From Escherichia phage ECBP2: 64,000 bases of DNA. The DNA lies in the sequence record NC_018859.1. One strand, 5' to 3'. Shown piece after piece: positions 10,339 through 54,370 of this stretch. The notes beneath the pieces were generated by a model that saw only the letters and a list, made by a program, of their open reading frames with translations, was not told the DNA's origin and ran no database searches. Every line of letters begins with the position of its first letter. Position 1 is the first letter of the stretch. The translations under genes and the position numbers were made by a program.

Positions 10339-11307
10339 ATGGGTTTATTTGGTGGAGGGGGTAGCACGTCTACTTCCAAAATGACAAGACCTGAATATAT
10401 TCAAAATTATATTGACCAACTAGTCAATCAGGTGAATAACACAAGTTCAGGCGATTATGTTTATAAAGACAATGTAGGTTTTAATCAGAACCAAACTGAG
10501 GCTCTGAATAACCTTTCTCAATCAGGGGCACTAGGTGCTCTCTCTTCTCAGTACATGGGTGCTGCTCAATCTGGTCTAGGTTATCTTGACCAAGCTAATA
10601 CTGGTTACAACAATCTGACTAATTCAGGTCAAATCACTGGAGAACAGATTGGTGCTTTGGCTGGTCAACTCTATGATGATGACGCTGTTCAGGCTGCTAT
10701 TACAGCTAATAACGAACAGACCCAGCAAGACTTGGCTCGTAATGCTCTTCCTCAATTGGCTCAACAGTATGCTGGTCAGCAAGGTTCAGGTGCACGTATG
10801 GCTAAATCTTTTGCTCAGGGTGATGCTCTGAATCAGATGCAGAATACAGCAACCAATATTACTAACAGTGCTTATGACTCTGCTGTCAATCAGGCTCAGA
10901 GTATCCTGTCTGGTAATAGACAATCTCAGGCTTCCGCTCTAAGTGGTCTCTCTGGTATCGGTAACACTATGTCTAACCTTGGTACTCAGGCAGGTCAACT
11001 TTCTCAACAGCAGATGCAGAATCAATGGGCAGCAGGTTTGCAACAGCAACAACAGCAACAGTCTGAATTGGACAATGCTTATACTAATGCTCAGAATGCA
11101 GCCAATTGGGGCTATCAAGACATTAATAACCAACTCGGTGCAGCAGGCGTACTCAATGGTGCTTTAGGGACAACGACTACTAATAAAGTTTCAGGTGGTG
11201 GAAGTGGTTTCTTAGGTGGTGCTATGAGTGGCGCAGCAGCAGGCTCTTCCTTTGGACCTTGGGGTGCGTTAGCAGGTGGGGTCATTGGTGGGTTGGCTAG
11301 TTCTTAA
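10339..11307 (+). CDS. Q/N/S-rich virion protein (paralog of 9280-10329)
   Basis: MGLFGGGGS vs MSLFGSAS N-termini; shared QN-rich composition; C-terminal GPWGALAGGVIGGLASS. Confidence 0.5.
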   Translation: MGLFGGGGSTSTSKMTRPEYIQNYIDQLVNQVNNTSSGDYVYKDNVGFNQNQTEALNNLSQSGALGALSSQYMGAAQSGLGYLDQANTGYNNLTNSGQITGEQIGALAGQLYDDDAVQAAITANNEQTQQDLARNALPQLAQQYAGQQGSGARMAKSFAQGDALNQMQNTATNITNSAYDSAVNQAQSILSGNRQSQASALSGLSGIGNTMSNLGTQAGQLSQQQMQNQWAAGLQQQQQQQSELDNAYTNAQNAANWGYQDINNQLGAAGVLNGALGTTTTNKVSGGGSGFLGGAMSGAAAGSSFGPWGALAGGVIGGLASS

Positions 11308-26094: not shown

Positions 26095-26698
26095 TCAGTT
26101 ATTCCCAAATTACTTCGGGTGTCGGACTATATCATAACAGCATAGCTAATTTGCTGTTGTTGGCGCTTCGAGGGTTTCCCTGTTAACCCCCTACTCCCTT
26201 AGGATAGTCTCTACACTTTCCACTTCCGAATCCATCTACAACCGATTCCGAAGCTCACACCAAACTTCTCTGCAAGATGTACACCAGAGCATTCTGTTTC
26301 TAGCCAATAGAGCCTTGCAGCCTCTTGCCTATCTCCATTTCTTCCAGTGTTTGATTCTATTGCATGTTCTGAACCTTCAAGCATTTCTAAGTGCTCAAGA
26401 TTGGAACAAGCTCTATTCTTGCATTTGTGATTTATTTCATAACCGTCAGGAATAGAACCAAAAGATTCTTCCCAAACATGCCTGTGATACATGACCCATT
26501 TGCCATCTATTACTTTTCTGAAATAACCATTTTTATTAAGTTTGTGTGAGATAGGGATGATACACCCTGTTTCGGTTGTTTCCAAAACAAGAGTTTTCTT
26601 AGCCATATCATCTCCTAATAGCTTAGCTCGGTATTGCCCTCAACTTAATGGTAGGGTTTCACCGAGTTCACCAACTTTTACATGCACAATGAAAGTTT
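26095..26698 (-). mobile_element. putative group I intron (604 nt) carrying an HNH endonuclease ORF
   Basis: Interrupts the polymerase at motif C; 5' exon ends in U (CAU) and intervening sequence ends in G; contains a free-standing ORF with its own start; stops in the polymerase frame. Confidence 0.5.
26211..26606 (-). CDS. HNH homing endonuclease (intron-encoded)
   Basis: YEINHKCKNRACSNLEHLE: HNH motif; lies entirely within the polymerase intervening sequence. Confidence 0.65.
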   Translation of the reverse strand: MAKKTLVLETTETGCIIPISHKLNKNGYFRKVIDGKWVMYHRHVWEESFGSIPDGYEINHKCKNRACSNLEHLEMLEGSEHAIESNTGRNGDRQEAARLYWLETECSGVHLAEKFGVSFGIGCRWIRKWKV

Positions 26699-28393
26699 AT
26701 GCATGTCGATAACCTTCGCACAACGAACACCATCACGCTCAATCCATTTATTGAGGAATAGCATTGCATACTTCATAACAATCGCCCCAGCGCTCTGTAA
26801 GAGCGTATTTAAGGCTTTATGGACCATAACCTTTCCAGTTGCATCTCTTCTCATTGTAATACGACGTCCATCCACACCGTAGATGTATCCACTTTGTGCT
26901 TTCTCGGTCATACGTTCAATAAGGATTGCAATACAAGGATTCTCTGCTAAGAATCTTGCTCTCATAATAGCCCCTTCGTCAGAGCCACCACCTACGATAC
27001 TTCCTAGTTTAGCGTCACCTGCCCCATAGTTAAAGGCATATATAAACGTCTTAGCGTTATCGCGAGTAGGAAGACCAGCAAGTTTTTGGTTATGTGAGTG
27101 AATATCTCCTTCTAAAAGAATATCTCTGTACATAACAGCAGAAGCTAGACCACGTTCAGCTTCTCGTTTCTTAGCTGGGTTGTTTTCTCGCTCTGCTTCA
27201 GCGAGCATCTCACGACATTCTTTAATAAGGTAGTGAGCTAGCATCCTCAGCTCAAGACCAGAGCCATCGTAACCTAAGAAGATTTCACGACCAGCAGGTA
27301 CATAGAACTTATAGGCACCTACAGGTTTGTCTTTCTTGCCCGGTTTTCCCACTTCGTAGATAATGTTAGTACCTTTTCGTACGTAACACCCATCAGGGAT
27401 ATGGTTGGTAATGATGAAAGGATAGTTATGACTATCGTCTGAGGAATAGTCAGATTGAAAAAGACTGCGGCACTCGTGACCAAACAAACCGCGAGAAGGA
27501 ATATTAACAACAATACGGTGTTTAAAACGAAATGTCGGAGTAGCGCAGCTATTAGCTTCGGCGGACAACTTACCATCTTCTCGTTCCTTGTCTATAAGAC
27601 CATTAATCAAGCCAAGCCTGTGAGCCGCTACAACACGTCTCTTAAGCAAACCTCCCACACCCCCTAGCTCACCCCCAAGACCTTCTTCAAGCGTCTCCTC
27701 GAGGTTTGTAGGAGCTGTAGGCCACTTGTTTGACATGGCTAAAGCTTTCTTAATTTCATCAAAGGTTACAGGCTTCTTCCTGTTCGGATTCAAGCCTAAA
27801 CCACTGACGTAGGCTTTCATGTAGTTGACAGTGTGATAACGGAAGTGTTTATCCAAGAACCGACGAATGTCAGCATCAATCATCTCAGCTGTCTGTTTTT
27901 CTTTAGCGTTTCCTCGCATCCAAGCAGAATACCAAGCAGCATATGTGCCATACTTCTTCATCGCTTTACGGATTTCGTAAGTATTCCAAGGTTTCTTGGA
28001 TGTGTTCCACTCTGGAGGAATGAAGCCTTCATCCATCAAGGCTTCTTTGATACGTGCATCTTTCGATGGGTCGAAGTCTACATACTCAACGCAAGTAAAC
28101 GCCCCACCGATATCTTCTCTTTTAAGACCAACTCTGTCACAATAAAGCTGAGGCCACTTCTGTAAAGCACCTGACTTCTTAAAAGGTTTCGAATAAGTTG
28201 AACCATCCACCCGCATTTTGGGGAGGAGAGGAATCAGTTCTTTATCAATATTGACAATAATCTCTTTGAGAAGGTGAACAAACCACCGAGCGTTTCTTCT
28301 GTGGAAGTTGACGCCATGCTTCGCCTGCTTTGAGATTATATCAGCGACTGTCATCTCCGTTATGAAAGGTAACTTATCAGGGTTATCCATCAC
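26699..28393 (-). CDS. DNA polymerase (family A, T7-like) polymerase domain, exon 1
   Basis: DGSGLELRMLAHY (motif A), RDNAKTFIYAFNYGAG (motif B), LNTLLQSAGAIVMKYAM; no exonuclease domain; the track ORF runs into a 6-codon tail and stop inside the intron. Confidence 0.85.
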
Positions 28394-33387: not shown

Positions 33388-33573
33388 TTATAGCATACAA
33401 AGAATAATAACAAGAGGTAGTGTTATAGCAAAATGTACCAGAACAACACTACCTAGCTTGATAGCTTTAACATCCTCTTCTGCTGGGTTTTCTTTAATTG
33501 CTAAATTTCGAGCTTTATATATAACAGTACCAACTATTAACGACCACACGGCCCACACAATCAGTGAAATCAT
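33388..33573 (-). CDS. small two-TM membrane protein (paralog pair)
   Basis: Two hydrophobic segments around an ENP motif (AIKENPAEEDVKAIKLGSVVLV). Confidence 0.45.
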   Translation of the reverse strand: MISLIVWAVWSLIVGTVIYKARNLAIKENPAEEDVKAIKLGSVVLVHFAITLPLVIILCML

Positions 33574-33582
33574 ATCAAACCC

Positions 33583-33804
33583 TTATGCAGTCAACAGGTG
33601 GAGAAGGAAAGGAATGACAACAGAGAAAATTACCAGAGCAATGCTGCCATGTTTAATGGGTTTAGCATCATTCGGATTTTCTTTAAGCATCTGTTTCTGA
33701 GCCAGATAAACGATACCACCAACAAGAATTGCCCACACAGACCATACGATTGCTGAAAACATATTCACATCCTTATAAAGAAGTTCGCCCCACCTCTTAA
33801 ACAA
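33583..33804 (-). CDS. small two-TM membrane protein (paralog pair)
   Basis: MLKENPNDAKPIKHGSIALVIF aligns with the adjacent gene. Confidence 0.45.
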   Translation of the reverse strand: MFKRWGELLYKDVNMFSAIVWSVWAILVGGIVYLAQKQMLKENPNDAKPIKHGSIALVIFSVVIPFLLHLLTA

Positions 33805-34784: not shown

Positions 34785-35000
34785 CTAGTAATAAACCTTG
34801 CTGGATATGAATCCAGCACTGTTCTGGATATTTTCAATCCAACGATGAATCTCCACCTTTTCAGCGATTCCTAAAGCTTTTGTAGCTTTTATAGTTTTCT
34901 TAGCAAGACGAGCCTCTTGTCTTGTGTTGAATAATTGAATACAATCACCACCAAGAGCTTTGTTAGCCCATTTAGTACGAACTGCCCATAATTTATCCAT
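34785..35000 (-). CDS. small basic protein, family member
   Basis: NTRQEARLAKK; 71 aa. Confidence 0.4.
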   Translation of the reverse strand: MDKLWAVRTKWANKALGGDCIQLFNTRQEARLAKKTIKATKALGIAEKVEIHRWIENIQNSAGFISSKVYY

Positions 35001-35212
35001 TAGTAATGTACCTTTCCGCTGATATAGAAACGACCTGATTTAAAGTCTTGAGCTTTGTGGATAGTGATCTTATTAATTGTGCTTTCACAACTTAACAAGA
35101 ACTTCTTATGAGCGCGAGCTTCTTGACGGGTATTCCTAATACCCATTGACTCTGTACCACTGCTCCAGTGAATACGAACTACCCAACGTCTTTTCATTGT
35201 TCCAAACTCCAT
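35000..35212 (-). CDS. small basic protein, family member
   Basis: NTRQEARAHKK; 70 aa, adjacent to its paralog. Confidence 0.4.
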   Translation of the reverse strand: MEFGTMKRRWVVRIHWSSGTESMGIRNTRQEARAHKKFLLSCESTINKITIHKAQDFKSGRFYISGKVHY

Positions 35213-35408: not shown

Positions 35409-35942
35409 TTATACACCTTTAGATGCAACTACACCTTCAGAGTTATTATAACGACCCTTCACTGCATAGGAGTGTTCCCCTGCATGAGAGTGCTCAAACA
35501 TCACCATCTGACCAACACGCATACCAGCACGAACTCGTAAGCTGTGGTTGTGAGTAACGTTATGGAATTCAAAGGTTAGCTTACTGCTATTAAACCCTGC
35601 ATCAGCCCAACCAGCATGAAGGTGGTTCAAACCACAACGAGCCATTGAGGAGCGGAGTACAAACAGGCTTGAGATATTATCTGGAAGGTTAAACTCTTCC
35701 ATCGAGTGAGCTAAGAAGAACTGTCCCGGAGTGATAACGATACCATCTTCAGGGATTTTTACTTCTTTCCACTTGAGGTTTTCTTTAGCATCAATGTCAA
35801 CAATGCCGTCAGCCTGTTCTTCAACAAGGATAGTATCACCAATACGGATATCCACGCTAGCAGCGTTAACATATTTATGCTCCGCATCTAAAAAGCCATT
35901 ATCAATAACGCTGTGTAATTCTTGAGAACCTAAAAGACTCAT
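35409..35942 (-). CDS. dcd: dCTP deaminase
   Basis: ASVDIRIGDT...ITPGQFFLAHSMEEFNLP...GWADAGFNSSKLTFEF resembles the dCTP deaminase/dUTPase fold. Confidence 0.75.
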   Translation of the reverse strand: MSLLGSQELHSVIDNGFLDAEHKYVNAASVDIRIGDTILVEEQADGIVDIDAKENLKWKEVKIPEDGIVITPGQFFLAHSMEEFNLPDNISSLFVLRSSMARCGLNHLHAGWADAGFNSSKLTFEFHNVTHNHSLRVRAGMRVGQMVMFEHSHAGEHSYAVKGRYNNSEGVVASKGV

Positions 35943-37387
35943 GAGTTTCTATTTCCTTGTACAGATGATGCCAAATTGTTAATCATGTTGCGAGCTGTTT
36001 CACGAGATAGTGTAACACCTGCTAAGTTGTTATGAAGCTCACCAGATAGTTCACGAGCAGCAGCTCGAAGTTCTGCACCAAGTGCAGTGTCAGAGTGAGC
36101 CAGACCGTTACGACGACCGACAGGTCGAGGAGTATTGTTAGCATCATTAGCTAAAGATGGAAAATCAATACGAGCAGCTTCACGAGCCGCTATCGCTGCT
36201 ACTCGATCTTCCGTAGGGGTTGGCAAATCACCAACTTCTACACGTTCTATATCACCAGCACATAGACCCTGAACAACTGAGCTTACTGTTTCCCATGAAC
36301 GATGAGAACGCTGTAAATCACCCATTGACGGAGAAGGAATAGGACGAGCAGTTCCCCCTTGAACATGCCATGTACGGTTGTGGGTGTCCGTCCCAGAAGA
36401 ACGTGCACTACCAAAACTACCATTAAAAGTATTACGAGGGTCCATTGTAGAAGGGGCTGCGAATCTTGGGACTTCCTGTTGCCAAGAGTCACGTCTGTTG
36501 GTTCCCGGAGTCCAAGGTTGTGTGATTGCTTCAGCACCGATAGTGGTTAATCCACTAGACCATTCTGTCTGTAGGTTAACTTCCTCGTCCAGATAACTAC
36601 GACCCCTTTCCTGAGGAATGTTTAATATAGTTTCCATCATCTTCAGGGTATAATGACGACGCTGATTCTGATATAAATTTACACCAGCCATAGGTCCAAC
36701 TAAATCACTAATCAGGTGAACTTCTGGCTCACCGAAAGCTCCCATTGCAAGGTGCATATATTCGGTAGAACTGCTATAAACTGCAACAGTTGCTTCAGGC
36801 CACTTCTTGTGAACGTACTTCATTTCACGACTAGATACCACAGGAATGTCACGAGTGTATGACATTGCAAACAAACCTTCGTTTGACACATACAGATTAC
36901 CAAGAGTCATAAACCCTTGACAGATCATAGGGAAGCGACGGCTTAAAGTATCCATATCCAAAGGTAGATTAATCATCATCTGGATTTTAACTTGATCAAT
37001 CTCAATTTCCAGAATCTCTTGGAAAGTGAAAAGCGCTTCAGCATAGGTTGTCCCGTTAACAGGCTGAATTAGTCGAGATGTAACTTGAAGCCCCTTACTC
37101 TCTGTCCAAGACAAGAAGTTGTCAAGGAACAGTGCAGCATTACTTACGTTAGCAGGGCTGTTTTCCTGACGAGTGTTCCAACGGAATCCCCCTTGAACTA
37201 GGAAGATATCAACATCATTCGGAGTTCGATTTTGGAAGAACGTATCACGGATAGCACCACCTGCAATGACAGGATAGATACCATCAGGGACTACGTTATC
37301 TCTGATCAAATTACGAATTAGGTCAAGCCCTACACTGAGGGCTTCTCCTTCTTGAAGGTTCAATTCAGACAATGGAATCTTAATCAT
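35939..37387 (-). CDS. Pol-beta-superfamily nucleotidyltransferase (CCA-adding/poly(A)-polymerase-like head) with long C-terminal extension
   Basis: YPVIAGGAIRDTFFQNRTPNDVDIFLVQ matches the GG[AV]xRD...DxD head motif of class II tRNA nucleotidyltransferases; 482 aa. Confidence 0.5.
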   Translation of the reverse strand: MIKIPLSELNLQEGEALSVGLDLIRNLIRDNVVPDGIYPVIAGGAIRDTFFQNRTPNDVDIFLVQGGFRWNTRQENSPANVSNAALFLDNFLSWTESKGLQVTSRLIQPVNGTTYAEALFTFQEILEIEIDQVKIQMMINLPLDMDTLSRRFPMICQGFMTLGNLYVSNEGLFAMSYTRDIPVVSSREMKYVHKKWPEATVAVYSSSTEYMHLAMGAFGEPEVHLISDLVGPMAGVNLYQNQRRHYTLKMMETILNIPQERGRSYLDEEVNLQTEWSSGLTTIGAEAITQPWTPGTNRRDSWQQEVPRFAAPSTMDPRNTFNGSFGSARSSGTDTHNRTWHVQGGTARPIPSPSMGDLQRSHRSWETVSSVVQGLCAGDIERVEVGDLPTPTEDRVAAIAAREAARIDFPSLANDANNTPRPVGRRNGLAHSDTALGAELRAAARELSGELHNNLAGVTLSRETARNMINNLASSVQGNRNS

Positions 37388-37389
37388 TT

Positions 37390-37938
37390 CTACATTTTCC
37401 AGTTGAGAGATGGGGGATTCTTATAATCAAATCCTGCCATTTGGCAAAGACACATATAAACCTTAACTGTTAAGTTAACGTCTTGCTCACAATATGTGAA
37501 CATGTCTTCAGTGAATGCATCCCATGCTTCTTCCTGCTCACCATAATCACCCTTCAGCTCACCCAGAAATTCGCCCCATTGCTTGAGGCCGTGACCACGA
37601 GGGCCATGTCTTGGGTCGCCTTTGGGATATTCTGGATTGTCTCCAATACGGTCAGGCTTGAGATAACGACTCAGGCAAAGTGTATCGAAAACATTGAAGT
37701 GGAAAGGTATTACATGAGAGTAGAATTTAAAGAGAGCTGGAAGGTCGAAGTCGATAATGTTATGACCTACAACTACATCAGCTTCTTTCAGTTTGTGAAG
37801 AGCTTCTTCAATTTGGTGAGGGCGATACCCCCACCGTTCACCTGTAAGAGCATCAAATATCCAGATACACCAGACATTTTGGATGCCCTCATAGAGATTA
37901 TCACCCTCGATATCGAAGGCGAATATTTTCTTTACCAA
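37390..37938 (-). CDS. DNA polymerase 3'-5' proofreading exonuclease domain (separate gene)
   Basis: AFDIEGDNL (Exo I), [13 protein letters not shown] (Exo II), YCEQDVNLT (Exo III); aligns with the N-terminal ~190 aa of T7 DNA polymerase. Confidence 0.8.
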
Positions 37939-39722
37939 GGTCGTGCCTCCCCGTCTTGTGTGAGCAGAGAAGCTGCATCCTCACCATTGGTCAAGACAAA
38001 CGGATTAGCTTCATCAACTTCATGATCTTCTCGTTCTACAAGTCGACCTGTTTCATTGATGTACTTGGTGTAGCAAACACCTGTCTGACCATAGTTACGC
38101 TCTTTGAGGAGTCGTATGATTGACAAGTTCTTGCCTAACCCATCAGCTTGCTTATCTCGTTCAAAACCAATGATGCACTGACACCAACGCATTAGTGAAC
38201 GTGAACCAGTGAACTGAACCTCTTTCACCTGTCCACCTTCTTCGTGAGGAGCACCACCTGCCGGAGCATTCAAGTGAGATAATACAAAAGCAGTGAAGTC
38301 TAATTCCTTACACATACCAGCAAGCTCTGAGGCAATCTTACTGATTTCTGTATTCACTTCAGATGGGGTTAGGTGAGAGACTAGCGCAGTGATGTTATCA
38401 AGAATGATAAACTTACACTGATTCTCGACTACCCAGAAGCGAATACACTGCTTAATATCATCCCACTCATTCTGACCGAAGTTATCATACAAGAAGAATT
38501 TATCAGCATAACGAAGTGCTTCATCACGTAGCTGAGATTCCTCATATTCAACATCAGGTCGGTGGAAAGGTACAGATGCTGACTTACCTGCAATGTTTTT
38601 AACAGACATGCCTACCTTCTCTTCCAAGAAGAAGCCACCACCATTAAACCCATGTTCAAGGCAAAGCCATGCTACCAGTTCGTGTGCGATCAGGGTTTTA
38701 CCTGAACCAACACCACCACCGATTGCAACCATCTCTCCCCAACGAATACCGAAGGTCATTTCATTCAGAGTTTTCCACGGATAAGGAATACCCCACTCCG
38801 CTTTCTTCAGAGCATCTTCTAAACAATCAAAGACAGTAACAGCACCAGCAGGTGATTCCCGCTTCGCTGAATATTTCAGATTGTTGAATAACTCTTGACC
38901 TCGACCAGCGAGTAACATGTCATTTGCATCTTTGATTTCCTTCTCTTGACCATTGTAAGTGAAGGTTCCTTTCGGAATACGAGCAAATTTAACATGGGGG
39001 TATAATGCACGACCTTTAGTTAATGCAATCTCACCTGCATCATCATTGTCCATGCAGAGCACAATCTCCTCAAAACCATTCAAGAAGTCACGGTTACGTG
39101 AGAGAACGGAAGAGATTGAACCTGCACCAAACGGTAGAGATACACACGCAGGTTTGATGTTTGTAGCGTTCGTAAACGCAGTGAGCACATGGAAGCCAGA
39201 CATACAAGAGAGTGGGTCTTCAAAGATGAAGAGCTTCTTGTTGTACACGTCACCACGTTGTGCTTGAGCCATACCGAATAGGTCAGCTTCTTTAACACTG
39301 CCGATGTAATAGAATTTCTTGCTGTCCAGAAGCTTAACTTCATAACCAACAATGTTTCCATCACGTTCACGAGGGAAGAAATAACTATCAGGAGTTTGCC
39401 CATCCGTCTGACTTAAACCGATACGACATTCATATCGTTCAGAGACAGCTTTAGGAATCAAACGACGAGTAAGCTCGCCCTGAGGTAGCTCTAAGCAATC
39501 GTCTAAGATCTCTCGGAGTTCTTCAGGGGATAGTTCTTTCTTCTCATTCGGTGTAGGAGTTGTTCCCTTTTCGAAAACTTCATAACTGCCACAACGATTA
39601 CAACTGCCCCACTCTTCACCGGACTCTTCGTTTCGGAAGAGAATCATGTGATTGTGGGTCTTATCACGACCATGAGAGATACATTCCTTACAACCTGTAT
39701 CTCCTAGGATGATCTTTGACAT
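37932..39722 (-). CDS. primase-helicase (T7 gp4-like)
   Basis: N-terminal Cys4 zinc ribbon (CKEC...CNRC), primase region, Walker [10 protein letters not shown] of a DnaB-type helicase. Confidence 0.85.
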
Positions 39723-41514: not shown

Positions 41515-42762
41515 TTACAGAGTTACTGCTACTTCACTACCTTCAACAGTTACAGACTCTAACTTACGAGGGTTATTAATCTGTGCTGGATGGACTGGAA
41601 CGTTCCAACCACTGCGGTAGAAGTTACGACCATCGCAGAACAGAATGACATTGGCAGACATTGCATTAGGTTGCAGGTTGTTGTAAACATGACGAATATT
41701 TGCAATCCAGTAACCACGAGACAAAGTATAACCAGTAGGTGCATTACGAATAGTTTGAGTATTCATCTGACCTTCCAGTTGCATTTCTTCAGGAACCACA
41801 TCAACTGAATCAACCGGTTGTGCTACTTGGCCTTCCAGTGCAAAGTTTTCATCGTCAGCACTTTCACTGTCAGCAACCAACTCACCGTCTCCGTCTTCGA
41901 TTGGAGCTTCAACAGGAGTCTGGTAAACTACTTTATACTGAGGAGTATAGAGAGGGTTTTGAGCTTTAACAAACTCAAGGATGTTGTGACGGTAGATATC
42001 CAGAGTTGTGCCAGTTAGGCCCGGTGCTGTATTAACTTCCAGTACCCATGCTTCTTGACCTTTGGTGATGATATCAACTGCACCGAAATCTAGACCCATT
42101 GATTCAACAGCTTTCACTGCGTTGATCAGAGAGGCATCGTTCGGAACGTCTGTGAAGGAACTTGAGTAAACCCAACCAGTGTGATGGTTACGAACATCTT
42201 CACGATAGTTAGGGTCTTCACGATAACCGTTACGACGAATCTTTTTCTGAACATAGGTGATAGCACCTTTGAACACATGGACACGCCATTCACGACGTGG
42301 GCCTTGAATGCCTTTAGTGTACAGTTCAGCTCGACCAAGACCATCACCCGGTTCTACAACAACAATGCCCGAACCAGAGTGACCAGTCAGCTCATGGCGC
42401 TCATACACAATATTACCAGTGTTTGACCACTCTTGAGCAGTCTCTTGAACATCTGTGTATTCCACAGTTTTAACACCTGCTTGGCCCATCACGCTGAAAG
42501 CACGACGTTTGTTCGCTGCCATATGTAAGGCTGCGGTACGGTTAAGGACGGTTGCAGAACCAAAGAATGATTCAGGATAGCGACGGTTCCCGTAGTTAAC
42601 AACCACATCACCTTCACGAGAACGCCAGCGGCTATTCTCTGAAAGAAGACCCATCACGTTAGCATTGATGCGTTCATCACGGATAGTATCACTGATAGCA
42701 GATACCAGAGCGTTAACAGAATCAGACGGGCCATACGGAAGAACACGGATACGAGTAGTCAT
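41515..42762 (-). CDS. ATP-grasp ligase (RimK/GshB-like) with C-terminal extension
   Basis: VYERHELTGHSGSGIVVVE, REWRVHVFKG, GLDFGAVDIITKGQEAWVLEVNTAPGL match ATP-grasp motifs. Confidence 0.7.
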   Translation of the reverse strand: MTTRIRVLPYGPSDSVNALVSAISDTIRDERINANVMGLLSENSRWRSREGDVVVNYGNRRYPESFFGSATVLNRTAALHMAANKRRAFSVMGQAGVKTVEYTDVQETAQEWSNTGNIVYERHELTGHSGSGIVVVEPGDGLGRAELYTKGIQGPRREWRVHVFKGAITYVQKKIRRNGYREDPNYREDVRNHHTGWVYSSSFTDVPNDASLINAVKAVESMGLDFGAVDIITKGQEAWVLEVNTAPGLTGTTLDIYRHNILEFVKAQNPLYTPQYKVVYQTPVEAPIEDGDGELVADSESADDENFALEGQVAQPVDSVDVVPEEMQLEGQMNTQTIRNAPTGYTLSRGYWIANIRHVYNNLQPNAMSANVILFCDGRNFYRSGWNVPVHPAQINNPRKLESVTVEGSEVAVTL

Positions 42763-42763
42763 T

Positions 42764-42994
42764 TTAGATACCTTTTAGTTTAAGAATTTCGTTACGACAG
42801 GATTGAATTTTAACTTCGATTGCCCAATACTCGGCGAACATTTCGTCTTCTTGGTCATCGTTTGGTGAATCAATTAGGTTGAAAGCAAACGGATACAGCT
42901 TTCGCTGCTCCGTCACCATTTGTTGAAGTCGGAGCTGTTGATACTCCAGCATTGTCAGGTGAGGCTTAGCTCCCTTGCTTGACATGAGGCTCAA
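42764..42994 (-). CDS. hypothetical protein
   Basis: 76-aa ORF inside the ligase cluster. Confidence 0.4.
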   Translation of the reverse strand: MSLMSSKGAKPHLTMLEYQQLRLQQMVTEQRKLYPFAFNLIDSPNDDQEDEMFAEYWAIEVKIQSCRNEILKLKGI

Positions 42995-43199
42995 CTTTAA
43001 TCCCCTTCATTTTCACGTAGTCAGCCAACACGTTGTTAATAACGGTTGGAAAAGGGATTTCAACTGGAGAGTCAACCAGCTTCCCAATACCTTCTTGCAT
43101 CCACTTCTGAATGGCTCGAAGGTTATCACATCCTGTGCTTGTCATTGGGATACGTCGAGTAGTTACAACGTTATCCAACATCAATTTACGAACTTCCAT
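42966..43199 (-). CDS. hypothetical protein
   Basis: 77-aa ORF inside the ligase cluster. Confidence 0.4.
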   Translation of the reverse strand: MEVRKLMLDNVVTTRRIPMTSTGCDNLRAIQKWMQEGIGKLVDSPVEIPFPTVINNVLADYVKMKGIKVEPHVKQGS

Positions 43200-43210
43200 A
43201 ACTTCACCTC

Positions 43211-45244
43211 TTAATGTTTACCTTTACAGTAATCTGAATTACAGATCACCCTGTTTTCTTTGTTTAGTGAGCAAATTTCTGCATCACGCCACGGAATTTG
43301 TTTATAACAGACTGCACAAAACCCAATTGAAGTCCAGAGGGCTTTTGTGAACTCAGCTGTTCGTTGTCCGTCGTAACTGACAACTGTTTTTCGGAGAGTT
43401 GTTTGCTTTTCTGGAAATGTCTCCGCTTTCTCAGCGGGCACCTCCTTTGGGGCATTCTTTGGACCATAAACAGAGATGGCATAGGTATCGCCACCACGTT
43501 TTTCCAAATAAGAGTTTGGAACATCAGACAATTCAATGTCACCAGAACGTTTAGCTGAGCTGACCATTACAATCATCCGGCTAAGCATACGCTGATCAAC
43601 ACGAACTGCTACTTCAGGGCGGCGTGGGTTAGTTGTGTCAACTGCTTTAGTCCAAATGTAACCTTCAGACAATGTAGTGTTAGTCACTTTGTCTTTGATT
43701 TCTTTGGCACAGACATAACAAATGTCTTCACCACGCAGTTTACTCATTTCATTATCAAACTCGAAATCAGTTTTAACATTACCACACACAGCACAGACAC
43801 CCAAAGGAATGTCTTCATCTTCTTCAGATGGTTTGGAGAGTGCTTCGAAACAGGCCGGATGCCAATATGCTTGGTAAGCGAACACAGCTTTCTTAGCATC
43901 TTTCCAATCAATGTGCTTATCACAACCACCACAATCACCGTGAGAATGTGATTCCCAGAACTTACGAGTGACTTCTACACCATTCTTAGTGATGAAGGAG
44001 TCTTCTAAGTCAAAAGGGATATCATCATCAAAATCAGCGGTGGTGCTTTGAGGCTCCTTATCGGTAGCGTCAACAAACAGCCCTGAAGTTAGTACGAGGC
44101 GAATCATACTGTCCACTTCGGAGATACAAGCAACTGTCCCGCGATACACTACCTTTGGGTTTTCGAGAGCCTTCAAGTACTCACTCTTGGCTACATTATG
44201 AACATCACCCTCAACATATTCTTGAGCAGCATCATCATAAATATAACCAACCATCTTACCACGGTCAGTGTTGTTGTAAGCATGGAACTCGTGAGGGATG
44301 ATATCCACACGACCATCACGACGATATGGAAGACCACGATCGGCAGCCAGTTTATTCTGATCTTCAATCGCTTTACGACGGCGAATGTCTCCGCTTGTCA
44401 CGCCGGGCTTGTCGTCTTTGTTTCCGTAAATGTCGCTTGTGCTGCTGCTTGATTTGTTTGTCTGTTGGCTCTGATATAGTGAGGAGTTCGAGTAATAGCC
44501 GCCCCAGCGACTCGTTACCGTAAAAACCGGAAGCTTGTGCTCCACCTCTTGAGTCAGAGTCATACGGTTGCCAGACAAATCAAAGATGTATTCAGTTCCC
44601 ACTTTACACTCAAAGTGATCATTGATACGGTTCTTGTGTGACTTGGAACGATTAAGAATCCACATCAACATATCTTCTTCAGAAGCACCAAACCAATCCA
44701 GACCACAACGGGCCAGATGGAAAGGACGTTCATCGTTACGAATGATATGCAGAGTATTGTCTTTGGCGTCATGCCAGATTAAAGTGAACGCACCATCCAA
44801 CTTCTGGATAGTCTCTGCTGCACCAATGGTGTTGATTGAATGACAGATGTTTTCGCTATCAACTTCGAAGTTCTTATGGTCAGGTAACAGCTCTTGGTCC
44901 ATCAATGTACCATTGTGAACCAGAGTAATGTCACCATGAGAGAACGGGTGAGCATTTCGAGCATTGACAGCGCCACGAGTGGCATGTCGGCTATGACCAA
45001 CAATCCACGCTGGAGGAACTACATAGTTCGTAAGCCCCTTAGTAATATTCGTGTACTCTGTCTGAAGCATGAAAGCATAAGAAGGAAGTGCTTCTTTATA
45101 AGAAAACACTCTTGCATCACTTTTACGCTGACCGAACACACCAGTTGAGTGCTGACCACGGAAGACTCCGGCATACAGAAGCTGGTTGAATACGTCTAAG
45201 TCTGTGGAGGTCATGTTGCCCCCAGCTAATACGATACCACAAAT
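43211..45244 (-). CDS. class-II glutamine amidotransferase (Ntn hydrolase) with Cys-rich C-terminal region; probable AUU start
   Basis: In-frame upstream extension reads stop-K-I-CGIVLAGGNMTS...; CGIVLAGG...VFRGQHSTG...GHSRHATRGAVNARNAHPF...LVHNGTL is the GATase-II signature with the nucleophile Cys directly after an ATT codon; AGGTGGA RBS 7 nt upstream. Confidence 0.7.
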   Translation of the reverse strand: MCGIVLAGGNMTSTDLDVFNQLLYAGVFRGQHSTGVFGQRKSDARVFSYKEALPSYAFMLQTEYTNITKGLTNYVVPPAWIVGHSRHATRGAVNARNAHPFSHGDITLVHNGTLMDQELLPDHKNFEVDSENICHSINTIGAAETIQKLDGAFTLIWHDAKDNTLHIIRNDERPFHLARCGLDWFGASEEDMLMWILNRSKSHKNRINDHFECKVGTEYIFDLSGNRMTLTQEVEHKLPVFTVTSRWGGYYSNSSLYQSQQTNKSSSSTSDIYGNKDDKPGVTSGDIRRRKAIEDQNKLAADRGLPYRRDGRVDIIPHEFHAYNNTDRGKMVGYIYDDAAQEYVEGDVHNVAKSEYLKALENPKVVYRGTVACISEVDSMIRLVLTSGLFVDATDKEPQSTTADFDDDIPFDLEDSFITKNGVEVTRKFWESHSHGDCGGCDKHIDWKDAKKAVFAYQAYWHPACFEALSKPSEEDEDIPLGVCAVCGNVKTDFEFDNEMSKLRGEDICYVCAKEIKDKVTNTTLSEGYIWTKAVDTTNPRRPEVAVRVDQRMLSRMIVMVSSAKRSGDIELSDVPNSYLEKRGGDTYAISVYGPKNAPKEVPAEKAETFPEKQTTLRKTVVSYDGQRTAEFTKALWTSIGFCAVCYKQIPWRDAEICSLNKENRVICNSDYCKGKH

Positions 45245-45321
45245 TTTCTAATCCACCTGAAGGGTAAACCCTTTCATCTAATTAACCTTTAAATGCGCCC
45301 TTTATCAGAGCGCCCATTGTA

Positions 45322-46422
45322 TTACAGCAGTCGTTCTAATTGCATTTCCAGATGGTCTGGAATATAACCAGTGACGTTATCATCACTGCTACCCGATTCA
45401 CGCATCAATGCAAACATGTGACGAATTTCACGAACCGTTGCGATTCGAGTGCTTTCAATCTGAGGGGTGTAATAGGTCATGATCTCTTCATAGACAGCGT
45501 TGGCATTACCACGAACATATCCCAAGAAACCATAGAAGTCACCCATATCACGCAAGTTGATAAGGACTTCACCATCAGGGCCAGTCTGTTGTACACGAAC
45601 ACGACCAACCAGAGTAACAGAATGTTCACGACAGAACAGAATATCACGAGCCAAACGATAACCACCAGTCAGGTCATCATCATTAGGTGTGTAGTCCAGA
45701 GGCAGATACTGAATCATAGGAGCGAAGCGTAGCTCATTCAGTTTCTCAACATATGCTTCATTGTCCAAATCTGCATACTCAACAGCCAGTTTCTTAAGAA
45801 CCAAGAAGCGGTTGACCAGATTAAGGAGTTGGCTTTTCTTCCACTTTGGCTCTGAGATACGAAATTCAACAGAACCAAACTGAGCCAGAGGTAATAGGTT
45901 AAGGGAGGTGTACTTGTCCCAGCTATTAACAAGAGTATTGAAGAAGGCTTCACCATCTCGGTTGAACGCTGAGGAAGCATTCATTACCTGTGCTTGAACA
46001 ACAGCAAAGGCAGGACAGAAGTTGCTACGATAACGATGATATCCAGAACATTTGAACATCATCTTTTCATAGAACGTCCATCCAAGAATTACTTTCTTCA
46101 GGATATTACTATCAGCGTCACGCATATCCATATGAACGTGAGTAGAGCAGCGCCAAGTCCCTTCAGCTTCAGAGTCTTGTACTGCTTCACTCAGATTGTT
46201 AATAGCACTAAGCAATTCTACACCGTTGTAAGGCCGTGCACAAACCATCTCACAGCCATCACGAAGTGAACCATCTTCAGTACAGACCCAAAGATCTGCA
46301 TCAATTTCAGAGGTTCCTTCAACTTCCAGCTCGATGCCAATACCACACTGAAAAGCGATGCTTGGGTGCGGCTCAGCCAGACGAGCATTACGGTATCCAA
46401 AAACTTGTGCTACGGTTGTCAT
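45322..46422 (-). CDS. amidoligase (glutamine-synthetase-fold carboxylate-amine ligase)
   Basis: QCGIGIELEVEG and WRCSTHVHMDMRD resemble the GIELE / HVHxG motifs of GCS2-type amidoligases. Confidence 0.55.
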   Translation of the reverse strand: MTTVAQVFGYRNARLAEPHPSIAFQCGIGIELEVEGTSEIDADLWVCTEDGSLRDGCEMVCARPYNGVELLSAINNLSEAVQDSEAEGTWRCSTHVHMDMRDADSNILKKVILGWTFYEKMMFKCSGYHRYRSNFCPAFAVVQAQVMNASSAFNRDGEAFFNTLVNSWDKYTSLNLLPLAQFGSVEFRISEPKWKKSQLLNLVNRFLVLKKLAVEYADLDNEAYVEKLNELRFAPMIQYLPLDYTPNDDDLTGGYRLARDILFCREHSVTLVGRVRVQQTGPDGEVLINLRDMGDFYGFLGYVRGNANAVYEEIMTYYTPQIESTRIATVREIRHMFALMRESGSSDDNVTGYIPDHLEMQLERLL

Positions 46423-47045
46423 AACGTTTCCACCAACTCTACATTATATGATGACAGATCTGAAGAAATATGCTTGAACTTCTCCAGAAGGTTTAAAGAT
46501 TGACGACCATTGTCGCCGTTACCAGCAGAAAGATCAACTTGACCTACAAAAGCCCCTTTGTAGTAAACTTTACCATCAACAGGGTTAATATAGATGAAGC
46601 GAGTAACCAGACCTTCAAAGTCAGGGTTGAACAGGTTATACACCAGCTCTCCTGGAATCGAACGTCCCATTGAAGGAGGTGCACCACGCAGCTTGTTCCC
46701 CATCAGACCCTTAGCTCGCTGACGAACAGGGTTGATATGAGTCCAGCTTACCATGTTGTTACCATGTTGCAGATAGCCCACATCTGGAGATTCCAGAATC
46801 AGGCTCTGATCAAACACAGGAATACCCTGAACAACCTGTCGCTCAAACTGCCCTTCGGAGTTCTTAGACCAGCGTTCAACTTCAAAGGTTAAGGCCATTT
46901 CGGCTTCGTGAGAGAAGTCGTCTTCCCCAAAGCGGTTTGGTTGGGTTACGTTAAGCACATACAGAGGGAGATTAATCCCTCGTTCTGCGCGTTGGGCAAT
47001 CCATGTTCCGCAATAATAATGCTGAAAATCTCTTAACAGGCTCAC
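46419..47045 (-). CDS. hypothetical protein (ligase cluster)
   Basis: 208-aa ORF, ATGA overlap with the amidoligase. Confidence 0.45.
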   Translation of the reverse strand: MSLLRDFQHYYCGTWIAQRAERGINLPLYVLNVTQPNRFGEDDFSHEAEMALTFEVERWSKNSEGQFERQVVQGIPVFDQSLILESPDVGYLQHGNNMVSWTHINPVRQRAKGLMGNKLRGAPPSMGRSIPGELVYNLFNPDFEGLVTRFIYINPVDGKVYYKGAFVGQVDLSAGNGDNGRQSLNLLEKFKHISSDLSSYNVELVETL

Positions 47046-47054
47046 GATAACACC

Positions 47055-47861
47055 TTAGATAATCTGAAGTTGAGAGGAGAACTTATCCGCTTCTTTAACA
47101 TCATTGCTGTTAATGATGTTGTGAAGCTTTTCGATAGGCAAACGGGAGTGCAGAGACATGAGGATTTCCATGTCACAGCCCTGAATAACCTTATCAACTT
47201 GATCGTAAACAAACTTACGAGTGGACTGTTCACCAATCCAGAAGTTCGACAGAGAACGATATTCAATACCGTAATCTTTATAACGAATCGCCGATGCCTT
47301 ACCGTAAAGTTCTTTACGACGAGTGTCCTTGTCCATCACAACCGCTGGAAGTGACAGGAAGTAATCGCACAGCACACCCAGCATCATCTGAGTCTGACGA
47401 CTAATTTCCAGTGTACCAGTAACACCGAGGTGAACGTGACCTCCAGCGGTACGCAGACCTTTGTCTGTCGCTACCGGAGATGGGTTTTTCTGACCAGTGA
47501 AGGCGTTGAAATCAGGAGTACAGCCAAATACGAAGGCTGACGGGTGGAATGATTCCAGCTCTTCAGCAGTATACACATGAGAGCTAATCCCAAGCGCAGC
47601 TTCCATACCACGTTCATGGAGAACTTTGTTGGTCAGATCAATACCACGCTGGATGTTATCATCAAACGCTTCAAACCCTTTCTGTGGGTTAATATCAAAT
47701 TCAGCCAGAACGTTGTCTTCTTGAAGACGAACATCAGGGGCCAGATCGATTTTGTTATCTTTAGAACAGCCCAGCTTACCAGCCACAGAGGTGATAACAC
47801 CAGAAGCAGTACGAACAAACATTTCAGGGTCAGAACCAATAAGGAAAGCACGCTTAGTCAT
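47055..47861 (-). CDS. second amidoligase-like protein
   Basis: FLIGSDPEMFV and AGGHVHLGV loosely mirror the amidoligase motifs; start at internal Met MTKRAF. Confidence 0.4.
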   Translation of the reverse strand: MTKRAFLIGSDPEMFVRTASGVITSVAGKLGCSKDNKIDLAPDVRLQEDNVLAEFDINPQKGFEAFDDNIQRGIDLTNKVLHERGMEAALGISSHVYTAEELESFHPSAFVFGCTPDFNAFTGQKNPSPVATDKGLRTAGGHVHLGVTGTLEISRQTQMMLGVLCDYFLSLPAVVMDKDTRRKELYGKASAIRYKDYGIEYRSLSNFWIGEQSTRKFVYDQVDKVIQGCDMEILMSLHSRLPIEKLHNIINSNDVKEADKFSSQLQII

Positions 47862-48804
47862 TGTAATACTCCACAAGTTCATCAAAAAGGGAAACAACAC
47901 GGGCACCAGCTTCTTCTGGTGTCATTGAGGAAGGTACTGCTTGCATCAAGCGTTCAATAAAACTGCGAACAGTAATTCTGTCCATACGCTGATCTAATAC
48001 TTCACGTTTATGGCCTGCACACATTGACCAGAGACGTAACCACTCACTCATACTTTCATAATAGTCAGGGTCTTGGTCACGACGACGGGCCATACTACGA
48101 AGAACTCCGTCATTATGGTTTCGTACATAACCATCTCTGTTAGCGTCAATACCAAATATATTCTGAACCCATACGTTTTCAGAAAATTCATCAGTTGAAC
48201 AGACCAGTGGCAAAAATGCGATTGCACTCATTTCACCGGTAAAATAGGTCGCTGCTGATTCATCATCAGTATCCACATCATGTGAATAATCCCAACGACC
48301 AAAGAAGTTACGACTTAAACCAGCTAAGCGTAAAGCTAAGCCGATTCGTTGTCGCTTGAGTAACTCTTCCTTGTCTTGAACGCCTTCCTGAAGGAACTCC
48401 ATTCCCATAAAATCCCCATCCAGATAACTCCGGAGGGTCATTAATCCAGTAAACACCTTGTCTGCTGGATGGTCTCGAAGGTTCACGGCAACTGAGTTCA
48501 CCGAAGTGACAGAGAACATGTTTTTATAACAAGACATTGAGTTAAAAATGTCTGTTGCTTCAACTAAAGCTCTTTCGATATCTTTAGCTGGTGTGCTATA
48601 AAAGTTGTGAGGCCAGAAGTTAATAACTCCAATTTCTGAAGTTCTATCACGAAGGCTTGAGAGATTGATACTGTCGCCATTAATGTCTGTAACAGAATAC
48701 ATATGCTGACAGTTGAAAGTACCAAAACAAGCTCGCCCTCTGAACACTGACTCACCAAAGTCCTCTGATGGTGTTACCGGAGCAGTCGATGCGGAGATTG
48801 ACAT
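47854..48804 (-). CDS. hypothetical protein (ligase cluster)
   Basis: 316-aa ORF. Confidence 0.45.
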   Translation of the reverse strand: MSISASTAPVTPSEDFGESVFRGRACFGTFNCQHMYSVTDINGDSINLSSLRDRTSEIGVINFWPHNFYSTPAKDIERALVEATDIFNSMSCYKNMFSVTSVNSVAVNLRDHPADKVFTGLMTLRSYLDGDFMGMEFLQEGVQDKEELLKRQRIGLALRLAGLSRNFFGRWDYSHDVDTDDESAATYFTGEMSAIAFLPLVCSTDEFSENVWVQNIFGIDANRDGYVRNHNDGVLRSMARRRDQDPDYYESMSEWLRLWSMCAGHKREVLDQRMDRITVRSFIERLMQAVPSSMTPEEAGARVVSLFDELVEYYND

Positions 48805-54294: not shown

Positions 54295-54370
54295 TGGTGC
54301 ACCCTACAGGATTCGAACCTGTAACCAACGACTTAGAAGGTCGCTGCTCTATCCATTGAGCTAAGGGTGC
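54295..54370 (-). tRNA. tRNA-Arg (anticodon UCU), CCA encoded
   Basis: GCACCCTTAGCTCAATGGATAGAGCAGCGACCTTCTAAGTCGTTGGTTACAGGTTCGAATCCTGTAGGGTGCACCA folds as a cloverleaf: 7-bp acceptor, GCTC/GAGC D-stem, anticodon loop CUUCUAA, T-arm ACAGG-TTCGAAT-CCTGT. Confidence 0.85.

What the first reader, a model, noticed from the sequence alone, without database searches (positions are those of the whole stretch)
35939..37387. CCA-adding/poly(A)-polymerase-type nucleotidyltransferase with a 300-aa C-terminal extension
The head motif IAGGAIRD...NDVDIF is characteristic of class II tRNA nucleotidyltransferases, but the remaining ~350 aa do not resemble the usual neck/body domains and are rich in Arg/Ser/Thr. 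It could repair tRNA 3' ends damaged by host defences, tail phage or host RNAs, or have a different substrate.
Basis: partly seen in the sequence, partly recalled or inferred. Interest (0 to 1): 0.55.

Follow-up and report, generated by a model that had tools for sequence, protein, structure and literature searches.

The report
Divergent phage nucleotidyltransferase with lysine-free tail
This is a real, conserved gene of phiEco32-like E. coli phages whose product keeps the catalytic head of CCA-adding/poly(A)-polymerase enzymes but has lost their nucleotide-selection and tRNA-binding parts, and carries a long floppy tail that contains no lysine; it is already annotated as a nucleotidyltransferase, and its substrate is still unknown.

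Summary
The ORF (35939-37387, minus strand, 482 aa) is real. The window is a phiEco32-like podophage (Gordonclarkvirinae, Suseptimavirus-like). Databases already call the product "nucleotidyltransferase" (PHROG 12715; NJ01/SU10 records: "class II CCA-adding enzyme NTase domain").

Only motif A aligns by sequence. Motif B (RRD), motif D (EDxxR), the PAP signature and the body/tail domains are absent, and Pfam PF01743 is never reached. It is therefore a truncated class II-like enzyme, not a bona fide CCA-adding enzyme or poly(A) polymerase.

The family is tiny: 31 representatives among 1.84 billion proteins. It always sits between the DNA-polymerase exonuclease subunit and dCTP deaminase.

The extension is about 210 aa, not 300. 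It looks disordered, evolves fast (dN/dS 0.36) and contains no lysine in any relative.

The most likely activity is untemplated nucleotide addition to a nucleic-acid 3' end, probably RNA. This is unproven. Interest is moderate.

The parts
35939..37387 (-). Whole gene: 482-aa nucleotidyltransferase (orthologue of phiEco32 phi32_73 / NJ01_088 / Bas88_0064)
   Evidence: ORF list; PHROG 12715 'nucleotidyltransferase' E 1.6e-177 over aa 1-475; 87-93% identical proteins in Suseptimavirus-type phages and ~32% over aa 1-283 in Kuravirus; annotations.
36959..37279 (-). Pol-beta-type catalytic head (aa 37-143): strand-GG-helix, DxD strand, long helix 78-97, flexible loop 98-121 with invariant Y115, beta hairpin 122-143
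37202..37267 (-). Motif A: I41-AGGAIRD...N57-DVDIF-62, with metal-binding D58 and D60
   Evidence: G43 G44 R47 D48 D58 D60 F62 invariant in 25/25 members that are 21-30% identical to the window protein. This is the only stretch that aligns to E. coli CCA/PcnB by hhalign.
36998..37024 (-). Strand aa 122-130 carrying the probable third catalytic carboxylate E124 (followed by invariant I125)
   Evidence: Position 124 is D (16) or E (9) in 25/25 members; E127 is not conserved; predicted beta strand 122-130. Its assignment as the third carboxylate is inferred from pol-beta topology, not from a superposition.
36578..36958 (-). Folded family-specific C-terminal subdomain (aa 144-270). It includes F152-P153-x-x-C156 where class II enzymes have RRD-FTIN, and helix 186-195 with R187-[DE]188-x-x-Y191-x-x-K194-K195-x-P197
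   Evidence: pLDDT mostly 85-95; P153, Y191, K195 invariant, [DE]188 in 25/25, R187 in 20/25; no DxxRRD or EDxxR in any member.
36098..36577 (-). Variable low-complexity tail (aa 271-430) that looks disordered: Arg/Ser/Thr/Ala/Gly-rich, lysine-free, indel-prone; begins with the semi-conserved W276-S-x-G-L280 motif
   Evidence: pLDDT 22-30 in the full-length model, which was poor throughout. Composition. Indels at aa 300-308, 336-343, 389-391 and 417-423 among close relatives, and dN/dS 0.36. Not alignable between genera. 0 Lys in 12,567 tail residues of 80 sequences.
35942..36097 (-). Conserved C-terminal end (aa 431-482), predicted helical: ...ELRAAARELSGELHNNLAGVTLSRETARNMINNLASSVQGNRNS
   Evidence: 92-97% column identity among close relatives, against 69-87% in the middle of the tail; dN/dS 0.20; helices 435-455 and 462-477 in the low-confidence model. 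Other genera end in different short motifs, often G-h-[ST]-[FL] or aromatic termini.
37390..37938 (-). Upstream neighbour: 3'-5' exonuclease subunit of the split family-A DNA polymerase (context, conserved synteny)
   Evidence: PF01612 E 9e-7, phrog_38876/403. The same order is found in relatives whose NTases are 22-23% identical to the window protein.
35409..35942 (-). Downstream neighbour: dCTP deaminase; its start overlaps the NTase stop (context, conserved synteny)
   Evidence: PF22769 E 1.5e-34; ATGA overlap; synteny.
37932..39722 (-). Primase/helicase heading the block (context)
   Evidence: DnaB_C and Toprim hits, phrog_239 E 7e-174.

Best explanation
The gene encodes a catalytically competent but highly divergent and truncated class II-type (CCA-adding/poly(A)-polymerase-like) pol-beta nucleotidyltransferase. 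It belongs to a small family restricted to phiEco32-like phages. Shown: the head carries the class II motif A (GGxVRD...DxD) and an invariant acidic residue at 124, and its predicted fold matches class II enzymes best. Inferred: D58, D60 and E124 bind two Mg2+ ions and transfer an NMP from a nucleoside triphosphate to a 3'-OH without a template. The acceptor is most probably the 3' end of an RNA (a tRNA-like or other RNA end), because every characterised class II enzyme works that way. Nucleotide choice must differ from canonical enzymes. The ribose-sensing RRD motif and the base-templating EDxxR motif are replaced by the family-specific FPxxC and R-[DE]-x-x-Y-x-x-K-K elements. The tRNA-measuring body and tail domains are replaced by a small folded subdomain. 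In this lineage there is also a ~210-aa tail that looks disordered, is lysine-free and Arg/Trp-containing, and has a conserved end. That tail most likely tethers the enzyme to a partner or to nucleic acid. The stated confidence applies to the whole statement, RNA acceptor included. That it is an active class II-like NTase head with a disordered tail I rate at about 0.85.
Against: No activity or substrate has been measured for any member (literature searches). Loss of RRD, which recognises ribose (PMC2910056), removes the feature that ties class II enzymes to ribonucleotides. There is no recognisable tRNA-binding domain. The phage's only tRNA encodes its own CCA. The gene sits invariably between the DNA-polymerase exonuclease subunit and dCTP deaminase, which points at least as much to DNA or dNTP metabolism as to RNA. 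The tail has net charge ~0, so it is not a simple polycationic RNA binder.
Confidence: 0.4

Rival explanations
1. A DNA- or replication-linked transferase. The enzyme would use dNTPs or NTPs on DNA 3' ends, on primers or on nucleotide precursors as part of the replication/nucleotide-metabolism module. It might contribute to a covalent DNA modification that explains the restriction resistance of Gordonclarkvirinae.
For: The order primase/helicase - pol exonuclease - NTase - dCTP deaminase is strictly conserved, even in relatives whose NTases are 22-23% identical to the window protein. Short head-only NTases of Autographiviridae also sit right after the helicase (LKD16 ORF16; Pectobacterium phages, PMC7693777). 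The ribose-sensing RRD motif is lost. The BASEL authors proposed that dCTP deaminase plus this NTase may underlie a DNA modification, since these phages resist RM systems without a known modification pathway (PMC11990801). 30 EcoRV and 8 EcoRI sites remain in the window, so site avoidance alone does not explain resistance to those enzymes.
Confidence: 0.22
2. A bona fide, merely fast-evolving CCA-adding or tRNA 3'-end repair enzyme that restores CCA ends damaged by host nucleases or defence systems.
For: [quoted passage not shown] Class II head fold. The phage carries a tRNA gene.
Against: Motifs B and D are absent in 25/25 members. There is no neck/body/tail equivalent by sequence. PF01743 stays below threshold. 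Distant members are only ~275 aa. The phage tRNA-Arg already encodes CCA. The phage shows no recognisable tRNA-repair partners such as PNK or RNA ligase in the annotated relative.
Confidence: 0.08
3. A nucleotidyltransferase with a non-nucleic-acid acceptor. It would nucleotidylylate a host or phage protein (MNT- or GlnE-type) or a small molecule, or make or consume a signalling nucleotide to subvert host defence.
Against: Those families score below class II enzymes. There is no PADLOC match. The GGxVRD form of motif A is, to my knowledge, typical of class II enzymes (not tested here). In this lineage the gene is core and syntenic, not an accessory island gene.
Confidence: 0.12
4. A catalytically dead scaffold. 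The NTase fold would be retained only as a structural or regulatory subunit (for example of the replisome), with the tail as the functional part.
For: The long tail with a conserved end suggests protein-protein tethering. The gene lies next to the split polymerase's exonuclease subunit.
Against: All three carboxylates, the GG turn and R47/D48 are invariant across members only 21-30% identical to the window protein, and core dN/dS is 0.09. Distant members lack the tail altogether, so the conserved function resides in the NTase core.
Confidence: 0.05

Closest known systems
Class II tRNA nucleotidyltransferases and bacterial poly(A) polymerase I (Pfam PF01743 head; PDB 3aql, 1miv, 4wby, 3h37, 1ou5)
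   Different: No DxxRRD (motif B), no EDxxR (motif D), no PAP signature. There are no body or tail domains. The folded part ends near aa 270, against 350-450 aa in the canonical enzymes. Only 25-59 columns align by profile comparison. PF01743 is below its gathering score. The family has its own motifs (Y115, Q136, FPxxC, R[DE]xxYxxKKxP) and a disordered lysine-free tail.
Short 'poly(A) polymerase head domain' nucleotidyltransferases of podophages (phrog_1614; e.g. Pseudomonas phage LKD16 ORF16, Pectobacterium/Dickeya/Providencia Autographiviridae 'tRNA nucleotidyltransferase', Caulobacter phage Cd1)
   Same: Head-only class II-like NTases encoded in the replication block just after the helicase. 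Structural matches in BFVD have E 6e-9 to 1e-4. Sequence link: phrog_1614 E 4.5e-6 (window protein) to 4e-10 (relatives). These proteins are also uncharacterised.
   Different: They are 165-255 aa and lack the extra subdomain and tail. LKD16 ORF16 still has a DYTLNQ remnant of motif B, where this family has FPMICQ. Only the motif A region aligns by hhalign. In Autographiviridae they are patchy accessory genes (PMC7693777); here the gene is a syntenic core gene.
Stand-alone CCA-enzyme head domain protein NP_344798.1 of Streptococcus pneumoniae (PDB 2la3)
   Different: It is bacterial and 191 aa, has no tail, and matches less well than the full-length class II enzymes.
Minimal NTases of toxin-antitoxin and defence systems (MenT/AbiEii, MNT, CD-NTases)
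   Same: Pol-beta core with a DxD-type triad. Some act on tRNA 3' ends (MenT; PMC11541572, listed).

Membership tests
Class II CCA-adding enzyme / poly(A) polymerase I (PF01743 family) | Motif A: GGxVRD followed by DxD (two catalytic carboxylates) | tested here: met
   G43 G44 x I46 R47 D48 ... D58 V D60. GG.[VIP]RD and D.D.F are present in 25/25 members. The stretch aligns to E. coli CCA and PcnB motif A.
Class II CCA-adding enzyme / poly(A) polymerase I (PF01743 family) | Third catalytic carboxylate on the strand after motif A | tested here: inconclusive
   [DE]124 is invariant (25/25) and lies on predicted strand 122-130. Equivalence to the class II carboxylate is inferred from topology. 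No residue-level superposition was available.
Class II CCA-adding enzyme / poly(A) polymerase I (PF01743 family) | Head-domain fold closest to class II enzymes | tested here: met
Class II CCA-adding enzyme / poly(A) polymerase I (PF01743 family) | Motif B DxxRRD (ribose recognition; PMC2910056) | tested here: not met
   0/25 members have DxxRRD. The window's R150-R151 are not conserved (D/E/G and R/T/S in others). The equivalent region reads F/M-P-x-x-C/S/A.
Class II CCA-adding enzyme / poly(A) polymerase I (PF01743 family) | Motif D EDxxR amino-acid template for CTP/ATP selection (PMC2910056) | tested here: not met
   No EDxxR at a homologous position in any of 25 members. A family-specific R-[DE]-x-x-Y-x-x-K-K helix lies at similar spacing. 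Whether it is the structural equivalent could not be tested.
Class II CCA-adding enzyme / poly(A) polymerase I (PF01743 family) | Four-domain head-neck-body-tail architecture that binds tRNA (PMC2910056) | tested here: not met
   The folded part ends near aa 270 and the rest has low predicted confidence and low complexity. Distant members total 274-320 aa. Profile alignment to CCA/PcnB stops after motif A.
Class II CCA-adding enzyme / poly(A) polymerase I (PF01743 family) | Pfam PF01743 at or above the gathering score (23 bits) | tested here: not met
   The window protein has no hit at E<=1. Relatives score 13.5-21.5 bits and cover profile positions 3-85 of 126 only. 14/25 members are sub-threshold, best E 2.5e-4.
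Bacterial poly(A) polymerase I | PAP signature [LIV][LIV]G[RK][RK]Fx[LIV]h[HQL][LIV] between motif A and the flexible loop (PMC2910056) | tested here: not met
   The regex finds it in E. coli PcnB (control) and in 0/25 family members.
Class II CCA-adding enzyme / poly(A) polymerase I (PF01743 family) | Template-independent CCA or poly(A) addition to RNA 3' ends | not testable with these tools
   This needs enzyme assays. The literature searches found no published assay for this family.
PHROG 12715 (phiEco32-like phage nucleotidyltransferase) | Full-length match to the family profile | tested here: met
   E 1.6e-177, aa 1-475 against profile positions 1-456 of 457.
PHROG 12715 (phiEco32-like phage nucleotidyltransferase) | Position between the DNA-polymerase exonuclease subunit and dCTP deaminase | tested here: met
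   Window, Bas88, KBNP1711, and two metagenomic contigs (62.7 and 85.7 kb) whose NTases are 22-23% identical to the window protein. A third, 2.8-kb contig shows the upstream half only.
Short phage head-only NTases (phrog_1614) | Significant profile match over the head domain | tested here: inconclusive
   The window protein matches only aa 32-74, E 4.5e-6. Relatives match aa 30-142, E 4e-10 to 4e-5. hhalign to LKD16 ORF16 covers motif A only. The two groups are related, but this is a separate family.

The most novel reading that the evidence does not exclude
The enzyme is not an RNA-tailing enzyme. It would be a replisome-tethered transferase, recruited through its lysine-free Arg/Trp tail, that acts on phage DNA, its ends or its precursors. 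It would then contribute to the unexplained broad resistance of Gordonclarkvirinae to restriction-modification systems. That would be a first DNA-directed function for a class II-type nucleotidyltransferase head.
Probability: 0.12. Interest if true: 0.8.

Novelty: new variant of a known kind. Interest (0 to 1): 0.4.

Why it matters
Gordonclarkvirinae are abundant E. coli phages with a broad host range and therapeutic relevance. Their molecular biology is barely studied, and they resist restriction systems without any known DNA modification (PMC11990801). This nucleotidyltransferase is one of the few conserved enzymes in their replication block with no assigned substrate. Showing what it transfers, and onto what, would either reveal a phage RNA 3'-end tailing or repair activity built on a minimal class II scaffold, or link the enzyme to DNA protection. 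It would also show how far a class II catalytic head can be stripped of its nucleotide-templating and tRNA-measuring parts. The complete exclusion of lysine from a fast-evolving disordered tail is a clean, unexplained selective signature that can be tested by mutagenesis.

Tried and rejected
1. The first AlphaFold run, on the full-length protein with a shallow 17-sequence alignment, gave pLDDT 38.6. I used it only for the tail's low confidence. The model became usable only after distant relatives from the exhaustive HMMER search were added.

2. Direct sequence searches gave nothing significant: Pfam, NCBIfam, PDB by sequence and by profile (CCA enzymes only at E~0.5) and PADLOC.

3. hhalign of the family profile against E. 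coli CCA, PcnB, their alignment and LKD16 ORF16 aligned motif A only.

4. The IMG/VR scan found no relatives. The AFDB50 fold library was unavailable.

5. Rfam found only the tRNA. No promoter or terminator separates the gene from its neighbours.

6. Literature searches found annotation-level mentions and one speculation, but no experiment. The Betat/Morl review was not held.

7. Ideas considered and rejected:
- Poly(A) polymerase I orthologue: the PAP signature is absent.
- CD-NTase or MenT-type enzyme: lower structural scores and a different motif A.
- An artefactual or non-coding tail: rejected because the frame is conserved, indels are in multiples of three, and dN/dS is 0.36 and 0.20.
- A basic RNA-binding tail like that of PcnB: weakened because the net charge is ~0.
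Full report
**1. The observation**

An ORF lies at exactly 35939-37387 on the minus strand and encodes 482 aa. Its ATG sits 2 nt after the stop of the upstream gene, and its stop overlaps the ATG of the downstream gene in an ATGA overlap. N57-DVDIF-62.

The gene is real.
- tblastn finds full-length homologues (87-93% identity) in 21 phage records and N-terminal homologues (~32% over aa 1-283) in 75 more, all Escherichia or Shigella phages.
- Among eight close relatives the frame is kept, indels are in whole codons, and dN/dS is 0.09 for aa 1-270, 0.36 for aa 271-430 and 0.20 for aa 431-482.
- No promoter- or terminator-like site sets the gene apart from its neighbours.

**2. Where it comes from**

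The window is a phiEco32-like podophage of the Gordonclarkvirinae. It is 90-94% identical over 5 kb to phages TH43, TH34, StefiGeyer_Bas88, IME267 and EK010, which are Suseptimavirus-type.

The gene order is primase/helicase (37932-39722), the 3'-5' exonuclease subunit of a split family-A DNA polymerase (37390-37938), this gene, then dCTP deaminase (35409-35942). The polymerase domain lies about 9 kb further on, at 26678-28393.

The product is already annotated. Bas88 and RefSeq records call it "nucleotidyltransferase". [quoted passage not shown] PHROG 12715, "nucleotidyltransferase", matches it end to end with E 1.6e-177.

The BASEL paper notes the conserved dCTP deaminase-nucleotidyltransferase-replication locus. 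It speculates that the locus could underlie a DNA modification, because these phages resist restriction systems (PMC11990801). My literature searches found no experimental work on the protein.

**3. What the sequence supports**

Direct searches give nothing significant for the window protein.
- Pfam gives no hit at E<=1.
- NCBIfam gives nothing meaningful.
- PADLOC gives nothing.
- PDB by sequence gives nothing.
- A family profile against PDB gives only E~0.5 hits on motif A of human CCA enzyme.

Kuravirus and other relatives hit the Pfam PolyA_pol head domain (PF01743) only below threshold. They score 13.5-21.5 bits against a cut-off of 23, and cover profile positions 3-85 of 126. 14 of 25 family members give such hits, the best at E 2.5e-4.

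An exhaustive HMMER search with a family profile found only 31 cluster representatives among 1.84 billion, and no canonical CCA enzyme. The family is therefore small and isolated. Its more distant members are 274-320 aa long, and 22 of the 24 aligned members are 21-27% identical to the window protein. They align over aa 1 to about 215.

Three of them were traced to contigs. Two (62.7 and 85.7 kb) lie between a DnaB-type helicase plus exonuclease subunit and a dCTP deaminase, exactly as here. The third contig, 2.8 kb, shows the exonuclease-like gene upstream.

Across 25 divergent members the invariant residues are G43, G44, R47, D48, D58, D60, F62, Y115, I125, Q136, P153, Y191 and K195. Position 124 is always D or E, and position 188 is always D or E. 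The enzyme therefore very probably retains a D58/D60/[DE]124 metal-binding triad.

**4. Structure**

With the 29-sequence family alignment, AlphaFold2 gave a confident model of aa 1-285, with pLDDT 87.5 and pTM 0.86.
- Other pol-beta enzymes follow: CdnE 7.9, pol lambda 7.8, TENTs 7.7 and MenT1 7.4.
- Foldseek agrees: 46 of its 47 best PDB hits are class II enzymes, with E 4e-5 to 2e-3 and TM (query) 0.33-0.44.

The margin over other pol-beta families is moderate. Only about 140-160 of the 285 residues superpose, which is the head.

In BFVD the nearest proteins outside the family are short (165-255 aa) phage "poly(A) polymerase head domain" proteins. They come from Autographiviridae and other phages, including LKD16, LIMEzero, Pectobacterium, Dickeya and Providencia phages, and Caulobacter phage Cd1. 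Family members also link to these by sequence through phrog_1614, with E down to 4e-10.

LKD16 ORF16 lies directly after the helicase. In Pectobacterium phages the NTase lies between the helicase and the DNA polymerase, and it is far commoner in phages of that host than in other Autographiviridae (PMC7693777).

**5. Membership in the CCA-adding/poly(A) polymerase family**

The defining features are taken from PMC2910056.
- Motif A: present.
- Class II-like head fold: present.
- Motif B (DxxRRD, ribose recognition): absent in 25/25 members. The window's R150-R151 are not conserved, and the region reads F/M-P-x-x-C/S/A.
- Motif D (EDxxR, the base template): absent.
- PAP signature: absent in 25/25, while the control in PcnB is found.
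- Body and tail domains: absent.

Profile-profile alignment with E. coli CCA, with PcnB and with their alignment covers only motif A and a variable stretch after it (25-80 aligned columns).

A family-specific helix, R187-[DE]188-x-x-Y191-x-x-K194-K195-x-P197, lies at about the spacing where class II enzymes have EDxxR. Whether it plays that role is my inference and could not be tested.

The protein therefore works from a class II-type catalytic head, but it is not a member of the CCA-adding/PAP family in the strict sense.

**6. The extension**

Residues 144-270 are folded (pLDDT mostly 85-95) and conserved in the family.

Residues 271-482 are the true extension.
- They had pLDDT 22-30 in the full-length model, which was poor throughout.
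- They are rich in A, R, S, T, G, N and P.
- They are indel-prone and cannot be aligned between genera.
- They are largely missing in distant members.
- The last ~50 residues are conserved within the genus (92-97% column identity, dN/dS 0.20) and predicted helical.
- A W/Y-S/T-x-G-L/R motif marks the start of the tail in most members.

The tail also contains no lysine at all.
- There are 0 Lys in 1,406 tail residues of 25 members, which are representatives of clusters at 50% identity, and 0 in 12,567 residues of 80 sequences.
- The window's proteome has 5.75% Lys.
- 53 of the 212 tail codons are one substitution away from Lys.
- GC3 of the tail is low (0.24), so the bias is at the amino-acid level.

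Arg is the only cation in the tail (10.7%), Trp is enriched (2.6%), and the net charge is about zero. I have no tested explanation for this.

**7. How it most likely works**

Shown:
- An active-site-competent class II-like head.
- Strong purifying selection on it.
- A constant place in the replication/nucleotide block.

Inferred:
- Two-metal-ion transfer of an NMP to a 3'-OH without a template.
- The acceptor is most probably an RNA 3' end, because that is what all characterised class II enzymes do.
- Nucleotide selection is altered.
- The tail acts as a tether.

I give the full statement 0.4. That it is an active class II-like NTase I put at about 0.85.

The rivals, with my confidence in each:
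- A DNA- or replication-linked role, possibly DNA modification: 0.22.
- A non-nucleic-acid acceptor: 0.12.
- A true CCA-repair enzyme: 0.08. This is weakened by the missing motifs and domains, and by the phage tRNA-Arg(UCU) already encoding its CCA.
- A dead scaffold: 0.05.

On the DNA-modification idea, the window strongly avoids some restriction sites: CCWGG (3 found against ~80 expected), GATC (114 against 290), PstI, SacI and KpnI. It keeps 30 EcoRV and 8 EcoRI sites. This neither proves nor excludes a modification.

**8. Verdict**

At the annotation level the gene is already known. What is added here is:
- It is a stripped-down, lineage-restricted variant of the class II head.
- It is fixed in the replication block.
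- It has its own conserved motifs.
- It carries a lysine-free tail that looks disordered.

Interest is moderate (0.4). It would be high only if the DNA-linked reading proved true.

Noticed in passing
window 7444-8463 (+), 9280-10329 (+), 10339-11307 (+); also 41515-48804 (-): Several other proteins are strongly lysine-poor against a proteome mean of 5.75%. A 339-aa 'membrane protein' (phrog_1265) has a single Lys. Two 'DNA ejection proteins' (phrog_4287) have 2.0% and 1.2% Lys. Proteins of the amidoligase/ATP-grasp cluster have 1.9-3.0%. Lysine avoidance may therefore be a wider trait of particular protein classes in this phage.
   Followed up: partly
window 37390-37938 (-) and 26678-28393 (-): The family-A DNA polymerase is split. 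A 182-aa 3'-5' exonuclease subunit lies next to the primase/helicase. The polymerase domain is a separate gene about 9 kb downstream, with many small ORFs in between.
   Followed up: partly
whole window: Marked restriction-site avoidance: CCWGG 3 found against ~80 expected, GATC 114 against 290, CTGCAG 0 against 17, GAGCTC 0 against 14.5, GGTACC 0 against 5.6. Thirteen 6-bp palindromes are absent. EcoRV (30) and EcoRI (8) sites are near expectation.
   Followed up: partly
window 54295-54370 (-): A single tRNA-Arg (anticodon UCU) with a genome-encoded 3' CCA. It is the only Rfam hit in the window.
   Followed up: yes
window 34785-35000 (-) / 35000-35212 (-), and 33388-33573 (-) / 33583-33804 (-): Two tandem pairs of small paralogous ORFs lie downstream of dCTP deaminase. 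One pair (71 and 70 aa) shares '...NTRQEAR..KK...'. The other pair are small hydrophobic proteins that share 'IVW.VW..LVG..IY...'.
   Followed up: no
window 35939-35942 and 37387-37392: Tight coupling of genes. The NTase stop overlaps the dCTP deaminase start (ATGA), and the exonuclease-subunit stop lies 2 nt before the NTase ATG. The primase/helicase and exonuclease genes overlap by 7 nt.
   Followed up: no
SU10 (relative), not in window: In the SU10 virion preparation, which was PEG-precipitated and not CsCl-purified, mass spectrometry detected one peptide of the NTase homologue among 'early gene products' (PMC4281155). This is probably contamination. Given the lysine-poor composition it shares with the ejection proteins, packaging of the enzyme was not excluded.
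   Followed up: no
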